Below are positions 28,696 to 63,620 of a DNA stretch of 64,000 bases, piece by piece. The stretch comes from Patescibacteria group bacterium UBA4787. GTDB taxonomy: Bacteria; Patescibacteriota; Patescibacteriia; UBA2591; UBA4787. The notes beneath the pieces are model-generated. The model did not search any database and was not told the origin of the DNA. It saw nothing but the letters and a program-made list of their open reading frames with translations. Every line of letters begins with the position of its first letter. Position 1 is the stretch's first letter. The stretch covers positions 85,625 through 149,624 of the forward strand of contig DHGX01000001.1 of the NCBI GenBank assembly GCA_002402995.1, given 5' to 3'. The position numbers and the translations under genes were made by a program.

Positions 28696-28841
28696 TGACT
28701 CAGTCAACCCCTCACATGGGAACGATATGTTTTGTCTTAGTTAGGGAAAGACATTTTTATTTTAAATAGATTTTTGGTTCTCGTTTCATGTATTAAAAGA
28801 AAAATATATTAAATTCCTTGATTGTTCCCATGTGAGGGGTT
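28696..28841. repeat. Perfect 20-bp inverted repeat pair (TCAACCCCTCACATGGGAAC / GTTCCCATGTGAGGGGTTGA) separated by about 106 bp
   Basis: Arms at 28696-28715 and 28822-28841. The second arm abuts the TTGACA of the downstream promoter. Confidence 0.7.
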
Positions 28842-28844
28842 GAT

Positions 28845-29677: not shown

Positions 29678-29927
29678 GAATATTTAGAAAAAATATGGTA
29701 TACTAATGGAATAAAGGATATTAAGCCCTGTGTTTGTTTCACTCGCTCCAAAAAGCAAATGAATCTGTTTTCCCGCCTGCCAATGCCTTGAGCCGACCTA
29801 AATAAAAACTTTTTATTAAAGATGTCATATTGCTGCCATAAACAAAATAGTTCACGACAACACGGCATAAGGCGAATGGCGGGCAGGTCTCTCGCTTGTC
29901 CACAAATAAAATAACGAATTCTACAAA

Positions 29928-31339: not shown

Positions 31340-31588
31340 CCCCGTAATACAACTTCGATGAGACCGACTCTGGTCGGCCCAAAAATCATGGAAAATTTTG
31401 TTAGTTAGATTGATAAACCCCGTTAGAGATTTAAAATTAAATATATTTAGGAGATTGACAAGAGCCGTGAGGCGGCTTCGCCTTAGTTGGGCGACAAAAG
31501 ATAGTCTCGGCTGAATCTCTAACGGGGTAAACATAAATATTTATTAGGACATAAAAATTATTAAAAATATCGAAGATGATATACGGGG
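31340..31588 (+). mobile_element. Miniature inverted-repeat element, family B copy 1 (about 249 bp, includes a nested hairpin module)
   Basis: Imperfect TIRs CCCCGTAATACAACTTCGAT ... ATCGAAGATGATATACGGGG. A second copy lies at 35835-35975. The internal arms AACCCCGTTAGAGATT / AATCTCTAACGGGGT (31416-31431 and 31514-31527) enclose a TTGACA box. Confidence 0.55.
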
Positions 31589-31652: not shown

Positions 31653-33050
31653 ATGCTTAAGAGAACTATTGTTTCGGACGCAGTGAATAAAGTAGGGCAA
31701 GAAGTCCGGCTTTGCGGTTGGGTTAATACGCGCCGTAATATGGGCAAAATTGTTTTTATTGATTTCCGCGATCGCAGCGGATTGGTTCAGGTTATTTTGG
31801 CGCCTAAAGAATTAGACGATGATTCACGGGAAGTCATTAAAATCATTCGCCCAGAATTCGTGTTAGAAATTATTGGTATGGTTAATGCGCGACCAGTTGG
31901 TCAAATAAAAGAAGAACAATTAACCGGCGCCGTGGAGATTATGGTCAGGTCGGTGAAAATATTGAATGAATCGGAGACTCCGCCCTTTGAAATTGATAAT
32001 GAAACTTTGCAGGCCAACGAGGAGCTTCGTTTGAAATATCGTTATTTGGATCTTCGTCATGAAAGGATGAAAAATAATATTATTATTCGAGACAAGATTT
32101 TTAAATATTTCCGCGATTATCTTTCTCAAAAAGATTTTTTGGAAATTGAAACCCCGATTTTATGTAAGGGCACACCGGAGGGGGCGCGTGAATATTTGGT
32201 GCCTTCGCGCGTTTATCCCGGCAAATTTTATGTTTTGGCGCAGTCGCCCCAGCAATTTAAGCAGCTGCTTATGGTTAGCGGCATGGAAAGATATTTTCAA
32301 ATCGCCAGGTGTTTCCGTGATGAAGACAGCCGCGGTGATCGCCAGCCTGAATTTACCCAATTAGACTTAGAAATTAGCTTTGTTGAGCGCGAAGACGTAA
32401 TGAATTTGATCGAAGACATGCAGATAGAAACCATTAAAGATTTATTTCCGTATAAGCATATAACCCAAACGCCATTTCCGCGATTTACTTGGAAAGAGGT
32501 GATGGAAAAATACGGCACGGATAAACCCGACATTCGCAAAGACAAAAACGATAAAGATGAACTGGGTTTCTGTTGGGTAGTTGATTTTCATTTCTTCGAG
32601 AAAACAGATGGCGGTAAATGGATTTTCACGCATAATCCTTTTTCCGCGCCAAAGACGGAATTTATGGAAAACCTGATGAAAAAAGAAAATATCGAAGAGA
32701 TCATAACCACCCAATACGATTTAGTTTTGAATGGCGTTGAGGTCGCTGGGGGTAGTATCCGTAATCATCAACCCGAGGCTTTAAGAAGGGTTTTCGAAAT
32801 TATGGATTTGAGCGAGGAACAGATTGAAAGTAACTTCGGTCATATGTTTGAAGCACTTAAATATGGAGCTCCGCCACATGGCGGCATTGCCATAGGGCTT
32901 GATCGTTTGGTTATGATTTTACAAAACGAACCCAGTATTCGCGAAGTTATAGCTTTCCCCAAAACCAGCGATGGCCGCGATCCGATGATGGGCGCGCCCT
33001 CAGAGATACCATCGGAAAAAATTAAAGAAGCCAACATTAATATTTTATAA
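31653..33050 (+). CDS. aspS: Aspartyl-tRNA synthetase (compact type without GAD insertion)
   Basis: N-terminal OB fold (VRLCGWVNTRRNMGKIVFIDFRDRSG), class II motif 2 FRDEDSRGDRQPEFTQLDLE, and motif 3 GGIAIGLDRLVM. Start set at MLKRTIV. Confidence 0.85.
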   Translation: MLKRTIVSDAVNKVGQEVRLCGWVNTRRNMGKIVFIDFRDRSGLVQVILAPKELDDDSREVIKIIRPEFVLEIIGMVNARPVGQIKEEQLTGAVEIMVRSVKILNESETPPFEIDNETLQANEELRLKYRYLDLRHERMKNNIIIRDKIFKYFRDYLSQKDFLEIETPILCKGTPEGAREYLVPSRVYPGKFYVLAQSPQQFKQLLMVSGMERYFQIARCFRDEDSRGDRQPEFTQLDLEISFVEREDVMNLIEDMQIETIKDLFPYKHITQTPFPRFTWKEVMEKYGTDKPDIRKDKNDKDELGFCWVVDFHFFEKTDGGKWIFTHNPFSAPKTEFMENLMKKENIEEIITTQYDLVLNGVEVAGGSIRNHQPEALRRVFEIMDLSEEQIESNFGHMFEALKYGAPPHGGIAIGLDRLVMILQNEPSIREVIAFPKTSDGRDPMMGAPSEIPSEKIKEANINIL

Positions 33051-35834: not shown

Positions 35835-35975
35835 CCCCGTAATACAACTTCGATGGGGCCGACGATAGTCGGCCCAGAACCCCCCCAGGAGAATTTTATT
35901 AGTTAGATTTATAAATATAAATAATATTTACCAAGATCCAAAAAATTATTAAAAATATCGAAGATGATATACGGG
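35835..35975 (+). mobile_element. Miniature inverted-repeat element, family B copy 2 (about 141 bp)
   Basis: Same termini as 31340-31588 (CCCCGTAATACAACTTCGATGGGGCCGAC...ATCGAAGATGATATACGGGG), lacking the nested module. Confidence 0.55.
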
Positions 35976-35977
35976 GT

Positions 35978-36427: not shown

Positions 36428-36536
36428 GAGGTATTAAACCCTGTGTTATCTGCGCTCGCCCCGCCTTAACTCGCGTCGGCGAGGCAGCCGGGAAAAGAAA
36501 ATTCATTTGCTTTTCACTCACTCGCTTAATAATAAT
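36428..36536 (+). repeat. Intergenic repeat family 1 copy (AGGTATTAAACCCTGTGTT ... CACTCGCTTAATAATAA)
   Basis: Shares both end modules and the internal GAAAAG.AAAT.CATTTGCTTTTC palindrome with copies at 5157, 5821, 22471, 29714, 39861, 40434 and 58147. Confidence 0.6.
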
Positions 36537-39860: not shown

Positions 39861-39950
39861 TTTATTATCAAGCGAGTGAGAGAAGAACAAATCTGTTTGT
39901 TCTTCCGAGCGAGCACGGATAACACAGGGTTAATACCCTTTATTTGCCTT
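39861..39950 (-). repeat. Intergenic repeat family 1 copy (reverse orientation)
   Basis: TTATTATCAAGCGAGTGAG ... AACACAGGGTTAATACCC. Confidence 0.6.
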
Positions 39951-40433: not shown

Positions 40434-40632
40434 TATTATCAAGCGAGCGAGAGAAACGAGAAACGAAGTTTTTTATTTCCGACCACGCCCGACTTCGCCT
40501 TGAGTGATTTTTAAAAACAGTCTTTCTAAACTAATATTTGCGGGGGGGTTCGGTACTTCGCTATTACTGCGCGGAACGGCGAACTCAAGGCGGGCGGGGC
40601 GAGCGCAGATAACACAGGGTTAATATCCTTTA
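40434..40632 (-). repeat. Intergenic repeat family 1 copy (long variant, reverse orientation)
   Basis: TTATTATCAAGCGAGCGAG ... GGCGGGCGGGGCGAGCGCAGATAACACAGGGTTAATATCC. The GC-rich core matches the 36440-36480 copy in reverse complement. Confidence 0.6.
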
Positions 40633-40782
40633 TGCCGCGTCAGAATTTATATTTTGGCGCGGTTTTCATTTAAATTAAATCAGTCCTGGTTTGCGAGATT
40701 TATAATCTTGTTTTTATCATTTAAATCGGCTAAAATATAAGTCTAAGATGTTCAGCTTATCTAACAGTGTAAATATGAATTT

Positions 40783-41034: not shown

Positions 41035-41047
41035 AGCGACGAGTATG

Positions 41048-41186
41048 CCAGGTAGTGAAAATTCGATAGTGCTTTTCGCTTCAGCTTACTATCTGGTTCT
41101 ATCATCAATAAAATATTGATTTTTACTACTAGTGCATTTATATTAATAACTGCACTTTTAAGAAACATCGAATTTCTACTACCTGG
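41048..41186 (+). mobile_element. 139-bp miniature inverted-repeat element, family C copy 1
   Basis: The TIRs ATGCCAGGTAGTGAAAATTCGATAG ... CATCGAATTTCTACTACCTGGTAT nearly match the second copy at 46587-46725 (same 139 bp length). The element ends 1 nt before the ATG at 41188. Confidence 0.65.
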
Positions 41187-41187
41187 T

Positions 41188-42333
41188 ATGAAAACTTCGC
41201 GCCCCAAAATTTATAGTTTTTTCACCTCGAAACTTACGATCAGTGTTTTTTTTATTATCGTCGTTGTCCTTAATATTTTGGTGGCAGTGTCTATCCGTTA
41301 TTCGATTAAAGCGCAAAAATCAAGCGAAGGAGAAAATGAATTTCTTAAACGAAAAATTAATTTCGATCAACCTTTTTATGTTAAAGGAATTTATCTGTCT
41401 TCCTGGACCGCCAGCGAACCTGTTTTGTTAAATAGGCTAATTGATTTAGCAAAAAAGAATAAACTTAACGCTGTAATTATTGATTTAAAAGACTCGCACG
41501 GAATAGTGGCTTATGAAAGTTCGGTGGAAACGGTAAAAAATTTAAAAACCAGCGAACCGCGTATAAAAAATCTAAAGAGCATATTAGAGAATCTGCATAA
41601 AGAAAATTTATATGCTATCGCGCGTTTGTCGGTTTTTCAGGATCCGACTTTAGCTTCCAGTAATCCTTCGGTGGCTTTGAAAAACAAAAATACAGGAAAG
41701 ATTTGGGCCGATAATAAAGGCTTGTTTTGGGTTGATCCGGCCTCTTTAGAGGTTTGGGATTATAATATAGCTCTGGCGAAAGAAGCTTGGCTGATGGGTT
41801 TTGATGAAATTAATTTTGATTACATTCGTTTTCCCTCAGACGGCAATATTTCCAATATTAGTTATCCTATTTGGGATGGCCTGGCGCCCAAAGAGGAGAT
41901 TATTCGGCGTTTTGCCGAGTACCAAAATATCGTTCTAAGTCCGCTTAACATCACGCGTTCCGCAGATTTGTTTGGTTTAACCTTTTGGCGGGATGACGAC
42001 TTGAACATCGGGCAAAATTTATCGTTATTAATTCCTTATTTCAATTATATTTGCCCTATGGTTTATCCTTCTCATTTTCCGCCCGGATTTGAGAATTTCA
42101 CTAATCCGGCCGAACATCCTTACGAGATTGTTTTCCGCAGTTTAGCCAAAGCTAAGGAAAAATTTATTGGCCAAAACGCTTTGCCGAGACCGTGGCTACA
42201 GGCTTTTGATTTGGGCGCGGAATATGACTCGGCTAAATTAGCTAAACAAATTAAGGCTGTGGAAGACGGCAACGGTTACGGTTGGCTATTATGGAACGCC
42301 CAAAATAAATACAATGATATTTTACCCTATTAA
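41188..42333 (+). CDS. TIM-barrel glycoside-hydrolase-like protein (GHL/DUF4015-type), membrane anchored
   Basis: Start moved to MKTSRPKIY immediately after the family-C element. N-terminal TM anchor, then GIYLSSWTA...NAVIIDLKD...AIARLSVFQD...GFDEINFDYIRFP segments typical of the putative glycoside hydrolase TIM-barrel family. Confidence 0.5.
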   Translation: MKTSRPKIYSFFTSKLTISVFFIIVVVLNILVAVSIRYSIKAQKSSEGENEFLKRKINFDQPFYVKGIYLSSWTASEPVLLNRLIDLAKKNKLNAVIIDLKDSHGIVAYESSVETVKNLKTSEPRIKNLKSILENLHKENLYAIARLSVFQDPTLASSNPSVALKNKNTGKIWADNKGLFWVDPASLEVWDYNIALAKEAWLMGFDEINFDYIRFPSDGNISNISYPIWDGLAPKEEIIRRFAEYQNIVLSPLNITRSADLFGLTFWRDDDLNIGQNLSLLIPYFNYICPMVYPSHFPPGFENFTNPAEHPYEIVFRSLAKAKEKFIGQNALPRPWLQAFDLGAEYDSAKLAKQIKAVEDGNGYGWLLWNAQNKYNDILPY

Positions 42334-42349
42334 TTTTTAAACTGAATTT

Positions 42350-42697
42350 ATGTCTCAGCGAAGACAAGAACAACTTAACGAATTGATTCAGCAAGAATTG
42401 TCACAAATTATTTTGCGCGAAGTAGAAATGCCCGAGGACTCTCTTTCAACCATTACCAACGTGGAAGTGGATAAAGATTATTTAACCGCCAAGGTGTTTT
42501 TGAGTGTCTTCCCCTTTAAGTATAGTCAACGCGTTTTAGGTAAACTGAGGAAAAAAGCAGGTTATTTGCAGTTTTTACTTAATAGAAAATTGGGCATGCG
42601 CTTGGTGCCAAAAATATTTTTTGAGCTGGATCAAACAGAAGAAAAAGCTTCAGAAATAGAAGACCTGCTTAATAAAATTTCACACTCGCCATCTTAA
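42350..42697 (+). CDS. rbfA: Ribosome-binding factor A
   Basis: RbfA pattern (R.E.L...I...L...V.DP...ITNVEV..D...AKVFLSV); 115 aa. Confidence 0.75.
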   Translation: MSQRRQEQLNELIQQELSQIILREVEMPEDSLSTITNVEVDKDYLTAKVFLSVFPFKYSQRVLGKLRKKAGYLQFLLNRKLGMRLVPKIFFELDQTEEKASEIEDLLNKISHSPS

Positions 42698-42864
42698 GCG
42701 GAATTTATTTGAATTTGAGGCATTTTCGGGGCTCGCAACTTAAGAATTGAATATTTATAGTTTTCCGCATGGTGTTTTCTGATAGTTTTGTTAGTATGTT
42801 ATAGTATCGACCAGTCAAAAAGTCGAAGCGAATAATAAATAAAATAACAAAATAATAAAAATTT

Positions 42865-44298
42865 ATGCGCCAAAAATGTAAAAAACACTCTAAAAAGGCC
42901 TTTGTTCAGATTCCGATAATCATGCTTGTTGCTTCTGTGGCTGCCTTGGGAGCTCTTCTCGTGGCTCCGGCGATAGTTAAAGTCGGGAATACGCGCTTAG
43001 CGCAAGTTGATTTGACTCAAGTCGTCGCTCCTGCTAATAATACGGAGTCTATCTCACAGGCTCAATCCATGCAGCCGGAAAAATCAATAATAATGAATCA
43101 AGGCCAGTCCGTCCAAATAGATCAGCCAATAATGCAACCAGGCACAGAACAGACTAATAGGCCGGAGATGAATTTACAAGAAATGAGGTCAGACTTTGAT
43201 CAAGAAAAACCAATTGATCCACAAGAAATTAAAAGCGTAACGCAACAATTGAAAGACATGCAGAAGGAGATTAAAAATCTTTTAACTCAACTTAAGAGTT
43301 TGCCGAAACTCGTTGATGAAGCAGCCCAGTTAAATGAAGCCCTTAGCCAGATTAATACTTTCGAACAGAACTTGAAAGATTCCTCAGTTGACACTTCTCA
43401 GAGAGAGGTGATACAGGAATTTTACGATGCTCGTTTCTGGGATACCATCCATGAGGTCAGGAACAGTTTCGTCAATCCGCGGGAAATAAAAAATGTTTTG
43501 AAACAAGCATCCGACTTGAAACAACAGATCAAAACACTTGCTATACAGGCAAAAAAATTGGCTAATTTGAGCGACGAGGTAAGTAAATTAAACGAACTTT
43601 CCGTTACGTTGGATAAATTTAAACAGGACATCAATAACCCGCCGGAGGATATGACACAGAGAGATGTTTTGCAAGAATTTTACGATGCCAGATATTGGGA
43701 CGATATTAATTCCATAAGAATGAAAATCGAATTCCCGAAACAGGTTAAACAGTTTGAGAAAGAATTATTAAGTGTGGAAAAATTATTAAAAAATAAGACG
43801 TATCAGAAAATCGCCATATTGGATATAGCGTCAATTACGAATACGGTTGCGGGTATGCGAACCACAATAAATGACGCAAAAGCTAAATTTAATAGCGGCG
43901 AAGTAGAAGACGCGATGCAATCCTTGCAGGACATTTACGGTGATTACGGTCCGGGCGACATAAATTGTGTGCTCAATTCTTTCCGTGACATTAATACCAA
44001 TTTACCAAAAGTCAAAGACGTTGAAATAAAGGCTTCGTTGCAAGATGTCATCGATCCTATAATTGAAGCAGTGAAAGACGAAGATTATCGCGGGGCTTGT
44101 CAGGGAGTAAATGAAATTAGAAATGAACTTTCTAAGATTATGCAATCAGCTTCCAGGGTTAAGTCTACGCTCGACACGAAAACTAGGCAGAAATTGGATA
44201 ACTTACAGCAATTAATAGATAAAAAGTTTGGCGGACAAGACAATAATGCGCCTCAAGATCAGATGAAATCACAAGAAATGAAACCGCAAGAGCAATAA
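42865..44298 (+). CDS. Secreted repetitive hypothetical protein
   Basis: Signal-peptide/TM N-terminus, a Q/N-rich region and an internal duplicated module QR(E/D)V(I/L)QEFYDAR(F/Y)WD.I. Confidence 0.45.
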   Translation: MRQKCKKHSKKAFVQIPIIMLVASVAALGALLVAPAIVKVGNTRLAQVDLTQVVAPANNTESISQAQSMQPEKSIIMNQGQSVQIDQPIMQPGTEQTNRPEMNLQEMRSDFDQEKPIDPQEIKSVTQQLKDMQKEIKNLLTQLKSLPKLVDEAAQLNEALSQINTFEQNLKDSSVDTSQREVIQEFYDARFWDTIHEVRNSFVNPREIKNVLKQASDLKQQIKTLAIQAKKLANLSDEVSKLNELSVTLDKFKQDINNPPEDMTQRDVLQEFYDARYWDDINSIRMKIEFPKQVKQFEKELLSVEKLLKNKTYQKIAILDIASITNTVAGMRTTINDAKAKFNSGEVEDAMQSLQDIYGDYGPGDINCVLNSFRDINTNLPKVKDVEIKASLQDVIDPIIEAVKDEDYRGACQGVNEIRNELSKIMQSASRVKSTLDTKTRQKLDNLQQLIDKKFGGQDNNAPQDQMKSQEMKPQEQ

Positions 44299-44392
44299 AG
44301 ATGATTAAAAGATATCAAATCCCGGGCACTAAAAATGTCCGGGATTTGTTTTTTGTTGACCTTTTCTCCTTATTTTGTAGAATAAAACAATT

Positions 44393-45778
44393 ATGTCTAA
44401 TGTTATTATTGATAAGCAAAAAATCGAAGAATTATTGACGCGCGGCGTGGAAAATATTTACCCGAACCGTGATTTCTTAGAAAAACTCTTGTATTCCAGA
44501 AAACGTTTAACTCTATATACGGGCTACGATCCAACAGCGCCAACCCTGCATATTGGCCATAGCATTACTATGCTAAAACTACGTCAATTTCAAGGATTGG
44601 GCCATAAAGTAATTATGCTTATTGGAGATTTTACCGGCATGATCGGCGATCCTACGGATAAAACCGCGACTCGCAAGCAGCTCACGCGCAAACAGGTATT
44701 GGAAAATTGTAAGGAATATAAAAAACAAGCGTCTGCAATTTTAGATTTTAAGGGCAAGAATCCGGTTGAATTGAAATATAACAGTAAATGGCTGGCGAAA
44801 ATGAATTTTGCCGAGGTTTTGGAGTTAGCTTCGCATTTTACGGTTCAGCGAATGTTAGAAAGAGATATGTTTGAAAAAAGAATGCTTATAACTTATGCGC
44901 GTTGTCGTAAATGTAATGATTTGTTTAAACCAAAAATTCAATTTAGCACGAAAGAAGCTTTTGATACAGCTCTTCCAATAATTATTTCTACTAATTGTCA
45001 AATTTGCGGAGAAAGAACGGTGGTCGAAAAAAAAGATTTAATTTTAGCGGAGTTGGAGTCGCCAGCCCCAATTTATCTCCATGAATTTTTATATCCTGTC
45101 ATGCAGGCCTACGATTCGGTAATAATGGATGTTGATGGTGAGGTCGGCGGCAACGACCAGACTTTTAATATGTTGGCCGGTCGGACATTAATGAAAGAAT
45201 TAAAAAACAAAGAAAAATTTGTTTTGACTACTAAACTTTTAACTGACACAAGCGGTAAAAAAATGGGCAAAAGCGAAGGCAATATGATTGCTTTGTCTGG
45301 CTCGCCTCAAGAGATGTTCGGTAAGGTAATGAGTTGGTCAGACGATTTGATTGTCAACGGTTTTATTCTATGTACCCGCTTGCCGGAGTCGGAAATTAAA
45401 AAATTAGAACAAGACTTAAAAAGCGGCGTCAATCCAAGAAATCTAAAAATTAAATTAGCCGGAGAAATTGTTAAAATTTACTACGGAGATAAAGCGGCCA
45501 ATTCGGCTGAAGAAAATTTCAATAAAATTTTCAGAGAGCATTTGATACCCGAAGATATAAAAACAGAAAAAATTAATCGAGGTAATCATAAGTTGATTGA
45601 TTTAATCTTTGATTATAGATTGGTTTCCAGCAAAGCAGAAGCGCGAAGATTAATTGAACAGGGAGGTGTGGAAATTAATCAAAATATCATTAAAGATTGG
45701 CAGGCGATTGTAAATATTGAATTACCTCAAATTATAAAGGCGGGGAAAAGAAGGTTTTTAAGACTTGACCCCAAATAA
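44393..45778 (+). CDS. tyrS: Tyrosyl-tRNA synthetase with C-terminal S4 domain and a Cys-containing insertion
   Basis: HIGH (PTLHIGH) and KMGKS motifs, a GYDPTA...GDFTGMIGDP TyrRS core, and a C-terminal S4 region (RRLIEQGGVEINQNII). Confidence 0.85.
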   Translation: MSNVIIDKQKIEELLTRGVENIYPNRDFLEKLLYSRKRLTLYTGYDPTAPTLHIGHSITMLKLRQFQGLGHKVIMLIGDFTGMIGDPTDKTATRKQLTRKQVLENCKEYKKQASAILDFKGKNPVELKYNSKWLAKMNFAEVLELASHFTVQRMLERDMFEKRMLITYARCRKCNDLFKPKIQFSTKEAFDTALPIIISTNCQICGERTVVEKKDLILAELESPAPIYLHEFLYPVMQAYDSVIMDVDGEVGGNDQTFNMLAGRTLMKELKNKEKFVLTTKLLTDTSGKKMGKSEGNMIALSGSPQEMFGKVMSWSDDLIVNGFILCTRLPESEIKKLEQDLKSGVNPRNLKIKLAGEIVKIYYGDKAANSAEENFNKIFREHLIPEDIKTEKINRGNHKLIDLIFDYRLVSSKAEARRLIEQGGVEINQNIIKDWQAIVNIELPQIIKAGKRRFLRLDPK

Positions 45779-45802
45779 ATTTTGTGTTAATATGTTGATA
45801 TT

Positions 45803-46114
45803 ATGTTAGCTATTAGATTTTCAAGACACGGGAAAAAAAATCAACCATTTTTTAGGATCGTTGTATCCGAAAAAGCCAAAGATCCAGTGGGAGATTTTTT
45901 AGAAGACTTAGGTTTTTATAACCCTCGTTCCAAAGAAGTTTCTTTTAAAAAAGAAAGAATTTTGCATTGGATCGGTTGTGGCGCTAAACCGAGCGCGACG
46001 GTTCACAATCTTCTGCTTAAACACGGCGTCACTACAGGTGAAAGAATTAAAGTAATGCGTCGTCACAAAAAAGACCAAGAGGAAAAAGAAGCCGCGCCGG
46101 CGCCAGCTGCTTAA
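45803..46114 (+). CDS. rpsP: 30S ribosomal protein S16
   Basis: MLAIRFSRHGKKNQPFFRIVV...FYNP S16 signature. Confidence 0.9.
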   Translation: MLAIRFSRHGKKNQPFFRIVVSEKAKDPVGDFLEDLGFYNPRSKEVSFKKERILHWIGCGAKPSATVHNLLLKHGVTTGERIKVMRRHKKDQEEKEAAPAPAA

Positions 46115-46206
46115 TATGCTTTATCTTTAAAATAAAGAAAGGTCGGATGAATTAAAAAATTATACTGGCATACTTTTGCGTGTCAGATAATAAACACAAA
46201 AAGAAT

Positions 46207-46512
46207 ATGGCTGCTAAGAATTCAGATCAAGAGTTTCTTGAGAATCTCGTTACTGCGCTTGTTAACAATCCTAAGGATGTTAAAATTGAGCGCCATGTTG
46301 ACGAGATGGGTGTTTTACTCACCATGAAAGTTAATCCCGCGGATATGGGCCAAATTATTGGCCGCGAGGGACAAACTGCTCGTGCCATTCGTACCCTTTT
46401 AAGATTAGTGGGCATGAAGAATAAAGCTCGCGTTAATCTTAAAATTGAGGAGCCGGAAGGCGGGAGAATGATGAAACCATCTACTTCAATTGACGAAGAT
46501 TTAAAAATTTAA
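46207..46512 (+). CDS. KH-domain RNA-binding protein (UPF0109/YlqC-like)
   Basis: The GxxG loop IIGREGQTARAIRTLL sits between rpsP and trmD, the conserved position. Confidence 0.75.
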   Translation: MAAKNSDQEFLENLVTALVNNPKDVKIERHVDEMGVLLTMKVNPADMGQIIGREGQTARAIRTLLRLVGMKNKARVNLKIEEPEGGRMMKPSTSIDEDLKI

Positions 46513-46586
46513 ACCTTGTTATTTATAATTAAAGGTTAGTAAAATCGCTCCATTGGAGCGATTTTACTTTCCGTTTTAAATATATG

Positions 46587-46725
46587 CCAGGTAGTGAAAA
46601 TTCGATAGTGCTTTTTGCTTCGGCTCATTACTTGGTTTCGTTGTTAACAAAATAACTAATCTTTGCTTCCAGCGCACTCCTTAATATAATCGCACTTCAA
46701 GAAGCATCGAATTTCTACTACCTGG
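46587..46725 (+). mobile_element. 139-bp miniature inverted-repeat element, family C copy 2
   Basis: Same TIRs as 41048-41186; ends 1 nt before the trmD ATG. Confidence 0.65.
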
Positions 46726-46726
46726 T

Positions 46727-47455
46727 ATGATTAAGTTCGATATTTTGACCATATTCCCCAAAGTTTTCGAAGGATATTTTTCTACTTCTATCATAAATCG
46801 GGCGAAGACAAAGAGACTCGTTAAAATTAGTATTCATAATCTGCGCGATTATACTTTTGATCGGCGCAAGACCATCGATGACCGGCCTTACGGCGGCGGC
46901 GCGGGTATGATTATGAAAGTCGAGCCGATTTATTTGGTTCTTAAAAAATTAACGCACAATTTTAGGAAAGACTCTAAACGAAAAATTATTCTGTTGCGGC
47001 CGTCTAAAAAGATTTTTAATCAAAATATAGCTCGCTCTTATAAAAACTTGAAACATATTATTTTGATTTGCGGTCACTATGAAGGCGTTGATGAACGGGT
47101 TGAACATTTTATTGACGAGTCTTTATCAGTCGGGAATTTCGTATTAACCGGCGGAGAATTGGCAGCGATGATTGTAGTCGATGCGATTACGAGGTTAGTC
47201 GACGGTTCAATTAAAAAAGAATCGCTGGGTGAAGAGTCATTCGATGATGAGGGTTGTCTCAAAATAGAATATCCTCAGTATACTCGTCCGGGAATTTTGA
47301 CAATTAAAGATAAATTCGGTAAAATAAAAGTATTGAAAGCGCCAAGAGTGTTGCTTTCAGGAAGTCATCAAAAGATCAGAGAATGGCGCCATGGCCAAGT
47401 AGCAGAAAAAGTGGCCAGAGCACTCCAAAAAAACAATAGGGGCAAAGATATTTAA
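46727..47455 (+). CDS. trmD: tRNA (guanine37-N1)-methyltransferase
   Basis: MIKFDILTIFPKVFEGYF N-terminus and the GGGAGM SPOUT-knot motif. Confidence 0.9.
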   Translation: MIKFDILTIFPKVFEGYFSTSIINRAKTKRLVKISIHNLRDYTFDRRKTIDDRPYGGGAGMIMKVEPIYLVLKKLTHNFRKDSKRKIILLRPSKKIFNQNIARSYKNLKHIILICGHYEGVDERVEHFIDESLSVGNFVLTGGELAAMIVVDAITRLVDGSIKKESLGEESFDDEGCLKIEYPQYTRPGILTIKDKFGKIKVLKAPRVLLSGSHQKIREWRHGQVAEKVARALQKNNRGKDI

Positions 47456-47541: not shown

Positions 47542-47670
47542 AGTATTGTTAATTTATATAGCCAAGTTCTTTAAAAATTTATTTTTTAGTTCAAACCACT
47601 ACAAAAATTCTTAAATTTTTTGTAGTTGCAAATTTTGAGTTTTGTAAATTTTTAGTATCAAATTTTTGTT

Positions 47671-49193
<1,523 letters not shown>

Positions 49194-49342
49194 AGAGGAT
49201 ATATCCCGACTATATGTCGGGATGGTCGATACTTTTCTTTTCCCTTGGGAATTAAGAGTATTTTCTCAAATATTTGCAACTACAAAAAGCTTAGGAATTT
49301 TTTTATTTAAATTAAAAATTTTAATAATTTTTAACAAAAAAA

Positions 49343-50595: not shown

Positions 50596-50670
50596 ATATT
50601 CGTCATGCTTCGTGAAATTGGTTCGCTACGGAATCAGACAAAAAGATTTTTGTCTGTCCCCCTGTTTGCC
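50596..50670 (-). repeat. Intergenic repeat family 2 copy
   Basis: The reverse complement ATAATTGGCAAACAGGGGGACAGACAAAAATCTTTTTGTCTGATTCCGTAGCGAACCAATTTCACGAAGCATGACGA matches copies at 55683 and 63536. Confidence 0.6.
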
Positions 50671-55559: not shown

Positions 55560-55890
55560 TTTTTGGCAAGTTGATACCGAGAAGATTTTTAAAATTTAAT
55601 ATTTCGGCGCTATCCACACTTTATCCCCATTTTATCCTCGAAACTCCAAAAAATTTCGTTTCAATTATAAACGATCGATGTTATAATTGGCGAACGGAGG
55701 AACAGACAATTTTTTGTCTAATTCTGTAGCGAGCCAATTTCACAGAGCGAAGCAAGTATAATTGGCAGCAGGGATAAAACAAAAATTTTCCGCCAGCTGG
55801 CGGATTGATTTTATCCGAAGCGCTCAAATTTCAGAAGCGAGGCGACTATATTTTTTTTGTTGATCAAGCTAATAAAAATAAAATAAATTT
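55560..55890. promoter_or_regulatory. Candidate chromosomal origin (oriC) region upstream of dnaA
   Basis: Consecutive DnaA-box-like 9-mers cTATCCACA (55611), TTATCCCCA (55621) and TTATCCTCG (55632), and TTATCCGAA (55810). The flank is AT-rich and dnaA is immediately downstream. The region also contains repeat family 2 copies (55683-55760, and a degenerate one at 55757-55850). Confidence 0.5.
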
Positions 55891-58146: not shown

Positions 58147-58222
58147 ATTTGTGAGCAAGCGAGGGAAAAGCAAATGAATTTGCTTTTCCGAGCGAGCGAA
58201 ACAAACACAGGGTTAATAGTTT
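58147..58222 (-). repeat. Intergenic repeat family 1 copy (reverse orientation) with perfect internal palindrome
   Basis: GAGCAAGCGAGGGAAAAGCAAATGAATTTGCTTTTCCGAGCGAGCGAAACAAACACAGGGTTAATAG. Confidence 0.6.
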
Positions 58223-63523: not shown

Positions 63524-63535
63524 ATTTATAGATTT

Positions 63536-63620
63536 TATAATTGGCGAGCGGAGGAATAGACAAATTTTTTTGTCTGATTCCGTAGCGAGTCAATTTCACG
63601 CGCAAAGCAAGTATATTCTA
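63536..63620 (+). repeat. Intergenic repeat family 2 copy upstream of valS
   Basis: ATAATTGGCGAGCGGAGGAATAGACAAATTTTTTTGTCTGATTCCGTAGCGAGTCAATTTCACGCGCAAAGCAAGTATA. Confidence 0.6.

What the first reader, a model, noticed from the sequence alone, without database searches (positions are those of the whole stretch)
41048..46725. Two copies of a 139-bp TIR-bounded miniature element that end exactly at the start codons of two unrelated genes
Copies 41048-41186 and 46587-46725 have the same length and terminal inverted repeats (ATGCCAGGTAGTGAAAATTCG... / ...CGAATTTCTACTACCTGGTAT), but divergent interiors. In both the element is followed directly by ATG: 41188, a glycoside-hydrolase-like membrane protein, and 46727, trmD. 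Neither gene has a Shine-Dalgarno sequence. The element therefore either supplies the 5' UTR and translation-initiation context, or these genes are translated in an SD-independent way. Precise insertion at -1 of two start codons is striking.
Basis: seen in the sequence. Interest (0 to 1): 0.6.

Follow-up and report, generated by a model that had tools for sequence, protein, structure and literature searches.

The report
Start-codon-hugging miniature transposons in Patescibacteria
The two 139-bp repeats are non-coding copies of a mobile DNA family from ultra-small (CPR) bacteria that inserts at gene start codons and duplicates the ATG; its full-length relatives encode only an 88-residue GIY-YIG nuclease, a design I could not find described.

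Summary
Two 139-bp elements (41048-41186, 46587-46725) have 20-nt terminal inverted repeats. Each sits between direct TATG repeats, and the downstream ATG is the native start of the DUF4015 gene or of trmD.

Close relatives have empty sites with a single TATG and the same N-termini, so this is a 4-bp target-site duplication, not TA.

The family is widespread in Patescibacteria (59 GTDB loci, 62 metagenome loci). Of 89 distinct insertions, 70 abut the start codon of a long ORF.

Versions of 304-328 bp carry one ORF between the same repeats: an 87-93 aa Slx1/UPF0213-type GIY-YIG nuclease.
- It is usually in frame with the captured upstream ATG.
- Its stop codon is usually 20 nt before the host ATG.

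The window copies are therefore MITEs of this family. Neither gene needs the element for initiation: only 9 of 49 long ORFs here have a Shine-Dalgarno sequence, and the empty sites lack one too.

That the nuclease mobilises the element is inferred. How far start-codon placement reflects targeting rather than TATG preference plus selection is unresolved. No description was found in the searched literature. Interest is high.

The parts
41044..41047 (+). Left copy of the target-site duplication TATG, copy 1. Its ATG (41045) opens an incidental 24-codon uORF running to 41119.
   Evidence: The empty site in L128 has a single TATG.
41048..41186 (+). MITE copy 1, 139 bp. Left TIR 41048-41067 (GA type), right TIR 41167-41186 (AG type).
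   Evidence: As RNA it folds at -43.7 kcal/mol, z = -8.0.
41187..41190 (+). Right copy of the TATG duplication. ATG 41188-41190 is the native start codon of the DUF4015 putative glycoside hydrolase gene (41188-42333).
   Evidence: Pfam PF13200. The 93%- and 84%-identical orthologues are 381 aa and start at this ATG with no element.
46583..46586 (+). Left copy of the TATG duplication, copy 2. Its ATG (46584) opens an incidental 23-codon uORF running to 46655.
46587..46725 (+). MITE copy 2, 139 bp. Left TIR 46587-46606, right TIR 46706-46725.
   Evidence: As RNA it folds at -44.8 kcal/mol, z = -6.6.
46726..46729 (+). Right copy of the TATG duplication. ATG 46727-46729 is the native start codon of trmD (46727-47455).
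   Evidence: The N-terminus MIKFDILTIFP is shared with orthologues whose sites are empty.
46538..46568 (+). Terminator-like hairpin after the KH-domain gene, 15 nt upstream of the insertion. It is host sequence, not part of the element, and is conserved in the empty-site relative.
35835..35976 (+). Related element of a second TIR type (CCCCGTAATACAACTTCGAT ... ATCGAAGATGATATACGGGG), flanked TATG|TATG. It abuts the start codon (35978) of a 149-aa lspA-like gene.
   Evidence: The empty site in L128 has a single TATG.
31340..31588 (+). Second copy of the second TIR type, flanked TTTG|TTTG. It carries a nested 110-bp element of a third type at 31418-31527, flanked TAAA|TAAA.

Best explanation
The two 139-bp sequences are non-autonomous copies (MITEs) of a Patescibacteria-specific family of tiny transposable elements.

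Shown:
- The element has roughly 20-nt terminal inverted repeats with a conserved GA/AG mismatch at positions 10-11.
- It integrates with a 4-bp target-site duplication, almost always TATG.
- In about four of five insertions that TATG contains a gene's start codon. The duplication leaves one ATG upstream in the host's original initiation context and regenerates an intact ATG for the host ORF right after the right repeat.
- Longer members (304-328 bp) carry a single ORF between the same repeats: an 87-93 aa stand-alone GIY-YIG nuclease of the Slx1/UPF0213 type.
- This ORF is co-directional with the host gene, usually in frame with the captured upstream ATG, and usually has its stop codon at the inner edge of the right repeat, 20 nt before the host ATG.
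- Both insertions in this window happened after divergence from relatives that are 79-93% identical at the protein level.

Inferred:
- The GIY-YIG nuclease is the enzyme that mobilises both the long elements and the MITEs in trans. It probably acts as a structure-specific nuclease on the hairpin or cruciform that the imperfect repeats can form, and makes a 4-nt staggered cut at TATG.
- The nuclease gene is expressed by hijacking the host gene's promoter and start codon. The host gene is then translated by coupling or re-initiation. In MITE transcripts, this would happen after the strong repeat stem that buries the AUG has been opened by ribosomes starting at the upstream ATG, or cut by RNase III.
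- The genes tolerate the insertion because initiation in this genome is mostly SD-independent.
- The start-codon bias comes from TATG preference plus purifying selection in a compact genome, possibly with some extra targeting.
For: Observation and chance.

Family distribution: 59 loci in GTDB species genomes, nearly all Patescibacteria across several classes, with at least 15 contigs of one MAG.

Target-site duplication:
- 59 of 89 distinct sites have identical 4-nt flanks: 49 TATG|TATG and 6 CATA|CATA (reverse-oriented).
- Non-ATG pairs TAAG, CGTA and AATG show it is a true duplication rather than element sequence.

Three filled/empty pairs against the syntenic relative L128 and others:
- DUF4015 gene.
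- trmD.
- lspA-like gene, for the second TIR type.

Start-codon association:
- 70 of 89 sites, against 26% of background TATG sites (p about 1e-24).
- Against about 43% under a crude null of TATG preference plus no coding hits (p about 6e-12).
- After computational removal of the element, the next in-frame stop upstream is a median of 4 codons away.
- The same trmD TATG is occupied by a different family member in L128.

Coding partner:
- Pfam GIY-YIG, E about 1e-18.
- 45 of 49 distinct long elements have an intact ORF.
- Y4, Y6, R27, H31, E51 and R61-R62-E63 are invariant, and Y17, G19 and N32 nearly invariant, across 38 proteins; a separate 22-sequence set agrees closely.
- The model has pLDDT 85 and its best structural matches are UPF0213 BH0048, Slx1 and I-TevI.
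- 74 of 79 GIY-YIG hits in the held DNA lie between family-1 repeat ends.
- A 61%-identical GIY-YIG has correspondingly diverged repeats that keep the AG/GA mismatch.
- No other ORF was ever found between the repeats.

Compact layout: the stop codon is 20 nt before the host ATG in 30 of 45, the internal ATG is at +27 in 29 of 45, and 25 of 36 are in frame with the captured ATG.

SD-independence.

Repeat stem in RNA.
Against: - No GIY-YIG enzyme is known to catalyse transposition (my own knowledge). Characterised ones nick DNA or leave 1-2-nt 3' overhangs, not a 4-nt stagger. Nothing here shows activity.
- This window has no GIY-YIG gene, so any mobilisation in trans must come from elsewhere in the genome or lie in the past.
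- MITE interiors share no detectable sequence with the nuclease gene. The link rests on the repeats, the duplication and the target.
- The GA/AG arms are swapped relative to the nuclease gene in 4 of 45 long elements without forming a clean clade. I cannot explain this.
- A subset of elements is not at ATG and has no clean duplication: the TCGG|GAGG group upstream of an SD, and the Doudnabacteria copies.
- How the host gene is translated downstream of a stem of about -44 kcal/mol is untested.
- The null model for targeting versus selection is crude. It was built from this window only and applied to insertions from many genomes.
Confidence: 0.78

Rival explanations
1. The start-codon position needs no targeting. 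The element simply prefers the tetranucleotide TATG. In a compact genome where over half of genes begin TATG and intergenic spacers are tiny, insertions anywhere else are removed by selection.
For: - 36 of 65 predicted genes in the window start with TATG. Start-codon TATGs are already about 43% of the TATG sites outside coding sequence.
- The flank logos show no specificity beyond T-A-T-G.
- Some copies sit at non-start sites with clean duplications (TAAG, CGTA).
Against: - The observed share is 79% against about 43% under that null (p about 6e-12, crude).
- The same trmD start codon was hit independently by two family types in sister genomes.
- 63 of the 70 start-codon insertions have the GA-type arm on the upstream side, non-coding MITEs included. 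Gene disruption alone does not explain this.
Confidence: 0.4
2. The GIY-YIG gene is only cargo or an addiction-type passenger. The repeats are recognised by an unlinked, conventional transposase encoded elsewhere in these genomes, and that enzyme moves both the long and short forms.
For: - GIY-YIG nucleases have no known strand-transfer activity (my own knowledge).
- An 88-aa single domain has no obvious DNA-binding module.
- MITE interiors are unrelated to the gene.
Against: - Every repeat-bounded element long enough to code carries this one ORF and nothing else: 45 of 49 intact, and 74 of 79 GIY-YIG hits lie between the repeats.
- No larger element with these repeats was seen among 130 loci.
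- Repeats and nuclease diverge together in L096.
- The ORF fills the interior to the nucleotide, with its stop codon overlapping the right repeat. This looks like long co-evolution rather than capture.
Confidence: 0.18
3. The element is host-beneficial. It acts as a portable 5' leader or promoter, or as a translational control hairpin that regulates the genes it precedes.
For: - The repeat stem buries the AUG and is very stable.
- Copy 1 contains a TTGATT-17-TATATT promoter-like site facing the gene.
- The right repeat necessarily forms the last 20 nt before the start codon.
Against: - The empty-site orthologues have the same starts with no element.
- The genes it precedes are unrelated.
- Copy 2 has no qualifying promoter-like site, and the counts do not exceed shuffles.
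- Interiors vary from 20 to about 290 nt between copies.
- No Rfam family matches.
- The uORF shows no coding constraint.
Confidence: 0.08
4. It is a structured non-coding RNA gene or a conserved cis-regulatory RNA, not a mobile element.
For: - Folding energies are strong relative to shuffles.
- The ends are identical across phyla.
Against: - Both strands fold equally well, as any inverted repeat does.
- Insertion polymorphism with target-site duplications.
- Many copies per genome at unrelated genes.
- The interior is not conserved.
- No Rfam match.
Confidence: 0.02

Closest known systems
Bacterial MITEs co-transcribed with genes, e.g. the Neisseria Correia/NEMIS elements (my own knowledge)
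   Same: - About 100-150 bp and non-coding.
- Terminal inverted repeats of 20-26 nt, a target-site duplication, and many copies close to gene starts.
- The repeats form a long RNA hairpin in the host transcript that could be an RNase III substrate.
   Different: - The duplication here is 4 bp (TATG), not TA.
- The insertion is exactly at the start codon rather than merely upstream.
- There is no sequence similarity.
- The coding partner is a GIY-YIG nuclease, whereas no autonomous partner is known for Correia elements.
- RNase III processing is untested here.
Slx1 / UPF0213 (BH0048, EF2693, YhbQ-like) branch of the GIY-YIG nuclease superfamily
   Same: - The nuclease in the long elements matches Pfam PF01541.
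- Its nearest solved sequences and folds are BH0048, EF2693 and the Slx1 nuclease domain.
- The catalytic Tyr, Tyr, Arg, His and Glu positions are conserved.
- Slx1 is a structure-specific nuclease acting on branched DNA, which fits a hairpin or cruciform substrate.
   Different: - Slx1 and UPF0213 proteins are host repair or housekeeping proteins. They are not reported to be flanked by inverted repeats or to be mobile (my own knowledge).
- The protein here is minimal, at 87-93 aa.
- It lacks the RING/zinc-finger domain of Slx1.
Free-standing GIY-YIG homing endonuclease genes (T4 Seg proteins, I-TevI type)
   Same: A selfish GIY-YIG nuclease gene inserted between host genes and relying on host transcription.
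   Different: - Homing endonucleases carry a separate DNA-binding domain.
- They spread by double-strand-break repair into the cognate allele.
- They have no inverted repeats, no target-site duplication and no non-coding miniature derivatives. Here all three are present.
IS200/IS605 elements and integron attC sites (ends that act as folded single strands)
   Same: - Very small elements.
- Imperfect palindromes whose conserved mismatches could mark the strand or the end.
- Dependence on a short specific target tetranucleotide.
   Different: - IS200/IS605 elements have subterminal hairpins rather than terminal inverted repeats, make no target-site duplication and use an HUH transposase.
- attC sites need a tyrosine integrase.
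- Neither enzyme nor those end structures are present here.
Penelope-like retroelements (eukaryotic)
   Same: The only well-known transposable elements that use a GIY-YIG endonuclease for integration (PMC8557442).
   Different: - They are retroelements with a reverse transcriptase.
- They are eukaryotic and several kilobases long.
- They lack this repeat, duplication and start-codon architecture.

Membership tests
MITE (miniature inverted-repeat transposable element) | Short and non-coding | tested here: met
   Each copy is 139 bp. The only ORF is a 23-24-codon uORF with no third-position bias (17/27/26 minor alleles by codon position).
MITE (miniature inverted-repeat transposable element) | Terminal inverted repeats | tested here: met
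   20-21-nt arms with 18 matching positions. There are 4 arm matches in the window against 0.09 expected.
MITE (miniature inverted-repeat transposable element) | Target-site duplication, shown by filled versus empty sites | tested here: met
   The window has TATG|element|TATG. L128, L130 and L123 have a single (T)ATG at the same gene starts. Non-ATG duplications TAAG, CGTA and AATG occur elsewhere.
MITE (miniature inverted-repeat transposable element) | Dispersed, multi-copy, at unrelated loci | tested here: met
   59 GTDB loci, including at least 15 contigs of MAG H41-bin211_1; 89 distinct insertion sites in all.
MITE (miniature inverted-repeat transposable element) | A longer coding element sharing the same terminal repeats | tested here: met
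   Elements of 304-328 bp have identical repeats, the same duplication and a GIY-YIG ORF. None lies within this window. No interior homology between short and long forms.
   The duplication is 4 bp. Reverse-oriented copies are flanked CATA|CATA, and non-TA duplications (CCTG, AATG) occur.
   No such ORF lies between repeat pairs in 130 held loci. Solo arms are truncated or degenerate copies.
GIY-YIG nuclease superfamily (for the ORF of the long elements) | GIY...YIG motifs plus conserved Arg, His/Asn and Glu | tested here: met
   PF01541, E 1e-17 to 1e-18. Y4, Y6, R27, H31 and E51 are invariant, and Y17, G19 and N32 at least 90% conserved, in 38 proteins; a 22-sequence set agrees.
GIY-YIG nuclease superfamily (for the ORF of the long elements) | GIY-YIG alpha/beta fold | tested here: met
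   The model has pLDDT 85 with strand-strand-helix-strand-helix-helix order. Top PDB matches are 1zg2, Slx1 (7cq2, 6seh), 1ywl and I-TevI 1ln0.
GIY-YIG nuclease superfamily (for the ORF of the long elements) | Nuclease activity | not testable with these tools
   Requires biochemistry.
Free-standing homing endonuclease gene | Separate DNA-binding domain, and spread by homing without repeats or a duplication | tested here: not met
   The protein is a single 88-aa catalytic domain. The elements have inverted repeats and a 4-bp duplication.
IS200/IS605 and derived palindrome-associated elements | No terminal inverted repeats, no duplication, HUH TnpA | tested here: not met
   Terminal inverted repeats and a duplication are present. 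The only ORF is GIY-YIG.
Described structured RNA or cis-regulatory leader | Match to a curated RNA family; conserved at orthologous loci | tested here: not met
   No Rfam hit at the gathering threshold. At E<=1 there were only chance snoRNA/miRNA hits far below threshold. The element is absent from orthologous sites in relatives.

The most novel reading that the evidence does not exclude
These repeats belong to a previously unrecognised class of prokaryotic transposable element.
- It is about 310 bp long, with terminal inverted repeats carrying a conserved internal mismatch.
- It makes a 4-bp TATG duplication.
- Its sole gene, and its mobilising enzyme, is a stand-alone 88-aa Slx1-like GIY-YIG nuclease.

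The element would specifically colonise start codons. It captures the host ATG and initiation context for its own nuclease and hands the host ORF a regenerated ATG 20 nt after its stop codon. Its MITE derivatives would sit on several percent of gene starts in Patescibacteria genomes.
Probability: 0.5. Interest if true: 0.9.

Novelty: categorically new. Interest (0 to 1): 0.8.

Why it matters
If the inference holds, this is among the smallest self-encoded mobile elements known. It would also be the first DNA transposon-like element driven by a GIY-YIG nuclease, adding an enzyme class to the known set (DDE, DEDD, HUH, serine, tyrosine, Cas1).

It shows a way for a parasite to live inside extremely compact genomes at little cost. 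It sits on the start codon, duplicates it, borrows the host's transcription and initiation, and passes ribosomes on to the host gene.

Practical consequences:
- Gene callers mis-start genes in CPR genomes. The DUF4015 gene here was called 24 codons too long, from a TTG inside the element.
- The nucleases are annotated as 'excinuclease ABC subunit C' or as a generic endonuclease.
- The insertions are useful strain-level polymorphic markers.
- A minimal nuclease with a defined 20-nt end and a 4-nt target could interest tool developers.
- It bears on how SD-less or leaderless initiation works in Patescibacteria.

Tried and rejected
1. Known RNA family: the Rfam gathering scan of the window and E<=1 scans of both copies found nothing credible.

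2. Leader peptide: the uORF opened by the upstream ATG (MPGSENSIVLFASA...) looked conserved and hydrophobic. Ten subfamily copies show no third-position excess (17/27/26), so there is no evidence that it codes.

3. MITE as an internal-deletion derivative of the nuclease gene: a short-word blastn of MITE interiors against nuclease-element interiors gave only chance-level 12-17-nt hits. My first impression of peptide similarity is withdrawn.

4. Outward promoter in the element: a consensus-type site occurs in copy 1 only and does not exceed shuffles. The candidate -35/-10 spacing varies among subfamily copies.

5. A larger autonomous element or a conventional transposase with the same ends: loci with a single arm turned out to be degenerate, truncated or contig-end copies.

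6. Vectors: no match in phage or plasmid collections with the full nuclease element, and no repeat match in IMG/VR.

7. TA duplication, or a TATG carried by the element itself: rejected by reverse-oriented copies flanked CATA|CATA and by non-ATG duplications.

8. Extended target motif: flank logos show nothing beyond T-A-T-G and AT-rich upstream sequence.

9. Literature: eight full-text searches combining GIY-YIG, Patescibacteria/CPR, MITE, inverted repeats, duplication, start codon and UPF0213 found no description. The nearest was a paper listing GIY-YIG domain proteins among genes Patescibacteria donate by horizontal transfer (PMC12455944). The library lacks most subscription-journal papers, so this is absence of evidence only.

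Full report
**1. The observation.**
The window is a low-GC Patescibacteria (CPR) contig. It matches JGI metagenome 3300002703, contig draft_11086697, 82 kb, and carries CPR-typical DUF5652 and DUF5701 genes.

- The 18-nt core CCAGGTAGTGAAAATTCG (up to 3 mismatches) occurs exactly four times, as two inward-facing pairs at 41048/41169 and 46587/46708. The expectation is 0.09.
- Each pair bounds a 139-bp element. The two copies are 85% identical, with identical ends and more divergent interiors.
- Each is flanked by a direct TATG. The downstream ATG opens the DUF4015 gene (41188) or trmD (46727).
Its 'ATG...' and '...TAT' are flank sequence, not repeat sequence.

**2. It is a family, and a mobile one.**
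A scan of one genome per GTDB species with the 20-nt arm found 59 loci. Essentially all are Patescibacteria: Paceibacteria, Saccharibacteria, and the Lipton-, Gottesman-, Doudna-, Berkel-, Terry- and Portnoybacteria. At least 15 contigs come from one MAG.

- Elements range from 60 to 327 bp.
- Every complete one has one ...AGTGAAAATTCG arm and one ...AGTAGAAATTCG arm, so positions 10-11 never pair.
- Pooling these with 62 metagenome loci gives 89 distinct insertion sites. Of these, 59 have identical 4-nt flanks: 49 TATG|TATG and 6 CATA|CATA, the latter being the same target in the opposite orientation.
- Rarer pairs (TAAG, CGTA, AATG) prove that the 4 nt are duplicated target, not element sequence.

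**3. Filled and empty sites.**
- Contig L128 is fully syntenic; its DUF4015 protein is 93% identical. It reads ...gtcgTAAagcagcgagTATGaaaatttcacgcccc where the window reads ...gtcaTAAagcgacgagTATG[139 bp]TATGaaaacttcgcgcccc. An 84% relative is also empty.
- For trmD, the 79% and 63% relatives have ...ttttatcATGatcaagtttgat and ...tatttttATGcttagatttgat. These are the same N-terminus, with no element and no SD.
- In L128 the very same trmD TATG carries a different 228-bp element. Its repeats are related but distinct (CCCAGTAATACAACTTCCAG...), and it is again flanked TATG|TATG.
- The window itself holds two copies of that second repeat type. One (35835-35976) sits exactly at the start of an lspA-like gene, and L128 has the empty TATG there.

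**4. Start codons.**
- The ATG touching the element opens an ORF of at least 60 codons in 70 of 89 sites: 63 on the side of the AG-type arm and 7 on the other.
- When the element and one TATG are removed computationally, the next upstream in-frame stop is a median of 4 codons away, and at most 10 codons in 45 of 62. These are therefore true first ATGs, often at tight operon junctions.
- Only 26% of 5,040 background TATGs open such an ORF (p about 1e-24).
- A harsher null allows only TATGs outside coding sequence. It gives about 43%, because 36 of 65 predicted genes here begin TATG (p about 6e-12). This null is crude and was built from one window.
- Flank logos show nothing beyond T-A-T-G.
- TATG preference plus purifying selection therefore explains much of the bias, perhaps not all. 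The repeated hit on trmD and the 63:7 orientation bias hint at more.

**5. The coding partner.**
- The 313-327-bp members found in genomes carry an 87-91-aa ORF between the same repeats, matching Pfam GIY-YIG at E about 1e-18.
- A metagenome scan for both arms separated by 268-298 nt returned 62 loci. Of 49 distinct sequences, 45 have an intact ORF.
- The catalytic positions are invariant or nearly so: Y4/Y6, Y17-x-G19, R27, H31-N32, E51, R61-R62-E63.
- The predicted fold (pLDDT 85) best matches UPF0213 BH0048, the Slx1 nuclease domain, EF2693 and then I-TevI.
- A profile search finds 6,624 clusters (E <= 1e-5). The best 120 are 86-120 aa (all but three at most 105) and are annotated only generically, some as 'excinuclease ABC subunit C'.
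- The layout is strikingly tight:
  - The internal ATG lies 27 nt from the left end in 29 of 45.
  - It is in frame and open with the captured host ATG in 25 of 36, giving MPGSENSxxI-MF(Y/H)YVY...
  - The stop codon overlaps the inner edge of the right repeat, 20 nt before the host ATG, in 30 of 45.
- The gene always points the same way as the host gene.
- In the 874 kb of DNA held, 74 of 79 GIY-YIG hits lie between family-1 ends.
- One 61%-identical nuclease has diverged ends (CCCTGTAGTAGAATTTC / CCCTGAAGTGAAATTTC) that keep the AG/GA mismatch and the ATG|TATG flanks. An 82-bp MITE with CCCCG ends keeps the mismatch too.
- No other ORF type was found between such ends.

**6. What the window copies are.**
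They belong to a 136-151-bp subfamily shared with MAG H41-bin211_1. They are non-coding: the uORF opened by the upstream ATG shows no codon-position bias. Their interior has no detectable similarity to the nuclease gene. They are MITEs that share the ends, duplication and target of the nuclease elements. The window has no nuclease gene.

**7. How it most likely works.**
Shown:
- Repeat-bounded insertion with a 4-bp TATG duplication.
- Recent insertion polymorphism.
- Occupancy of start codons.
- Exclusive association of the ends with a minimal, conserved GIY-YIG gene.

Inferred:
- The nuclease mobilises the elements. Its Slx1-like affinity and the conserved mismatch in otherwise co-evolving arms suggest that it recognises a folded hairpin or cruciform, as attC sites and IS200/IS605 ends are recognised.
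- The nuclease is expressed from the host promoter and the captured ATG.
- The host ORF is translated by coupling or re-initiation 20 nt downstream.
- In MITE transcripts the repeats form a stem of about -44 kcal/mol that includes both UAUG copies. This stem would have to be opened by ribosomes starting at the upstream ATG, or cut by the RNase III encoded nearby.

Initiation here is natively SD-independent:
- Only 9 of 49 long ORFs have an SD.
- The 16S 3' end reads CCUCU.
- The empty sites lack an SD.

So the element does not supply the initiation context.

**8. Unexplained.**
- In 4 of 45 long elements the GA and AG arms are swapped relative to the nuclease gene, while the gene stays co-directional with the host. 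These four are not a clean clade.
- A clade flanked TCGG|GAGG sits upstream of an SD instead of on the ATG.
- Doudnabacteria copies have a 1-nt bulge in place of the mismatch and no clear duplication.

**9. Novelty.**
The closest things I know are bacterial MITEs such as Correia elements, Slx1/UPF0213 nucleases, free-standing GIY-YIG homing endonuclease genes, hairpin-ended IS200/IS605 elements with attC sites, and Penelope-like retroelements. They match in architecture, enzyme fold, lifestyle, end logic and use of a GIY-YIG endonuclease respectively. None combines these features.

Eight full-text searches found no description. One paper notes GIY-YIG proteins among genes Patescibacteria pass on by horizontal transfer. 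The element was absent from the phage, plasmid and IMG/VR collections.

I rate it categorically new as an element type. The caveats are that the enzyme's role is inferred and that the literature library is incomplete.

Noticed in passing
window 35835-35976 and 31340-31588 (nested element at 31418-31527): A second repeat type (CCCCGTAATACAACTTCGAT / ATCGAAGATGATATACGGGG). One copy is flanked TATG|TATG exactly at the start of an lspA-like gene, and L128 has the empty site. The other is flanked TTTG|TTTG; the TTG after it is in frame with the 465-aa ORF 31653-33050. It contains a nested 110-bp element of a third type (CCCCGTTAGAGATT, flanked TAAA|TAAA).
   Followed up: partly
L128 12540-12767 (also L129 6771-6998): In a 93%-identical sister genome, the same trmD start-codon TATG that holds the 139-bp element in the window is occupied by a different 228-bp element (ends CCCAGTAATACAACTTCCAG). 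The gene caller consequently mis-started trmD inside it.
   Followed up: partly
window 41116-41187 (equivalent to L001 642): The public gene call for the DUF4015 protein starts at a TTG inside the element (405 aa). Orthologues without the element are 381 aa and start at the ATG at 41188. The element is causing a start-site mis-annotation.
   Followed up: yes
window 49181-49194: The 16S rRNA 3' end reads GGATCACCTCTTTT, so the anti-Shine-Dalgarno is CCUCU instead of CCUCC. Only 9 of 49 long ORFs have an SD-like motif, and 36 of 65 predicted genes begin with TATG.
   Followed up: partly
window 47666-49193, with 47600-47636 and 49269-49305: The 16S rRNA gene stands alone: no 23S follows within the window, and tRNA genes lie on the opposite strand from 50201. 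It is bracketed by a 37-nt inverted repeat, presumably the processing stem.
   Followed up: no
window 28704-28726 / 28821-28843: Another pair of 23-nt inverted repeats (96% complementary) bounds a 140-bp segment in a divergent intergenic region. It has no target-site duplication and may be a further miniature element.
   Followed up: no
window 39909-39943, 40599-40633, 58192-58218, about 5173 (-); inverted copies 36437-36465 and 29726-29774: A repeated 27-35-nt motif, ...GAGCGAGC...ACACAGGGTTAATA..., lies in intergenic regions. One pair is 29 nt long and 100% complementary. Function unknown.
   Followed up: no
window 55674-55715 / 63528-63569, and 50611-50649 / 63562-63600: Two further intergenic repeats. 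One is a 42-nt direct repeat containing TATAAT followed by GGCGARCGGAGGAA (88% identical). The other is a 39-nt inverted pair (92% complementary). They may be shared promoter or leader modules.
   Followed up: no
L072, L095, L101, L102 (metagenome loci): The GA-type and AG-type arms are swapped relative to the nuclease gene, giving MPGSRNS... instead of MPGSENS... fusions. The gene still points with the host gene. Their nucleases do not form a clean clade, so the arm asymmetry has flipped more than once.
   Followed up: partly
L060 7573-7600: A solo left arm: ATG + CCAGGTAGTGAAAATTCGAT + ATGGATACAAAAG.... Only 20 nt of the element remain between two ATGs. This may be a deletion footprint.
   Followed up: no
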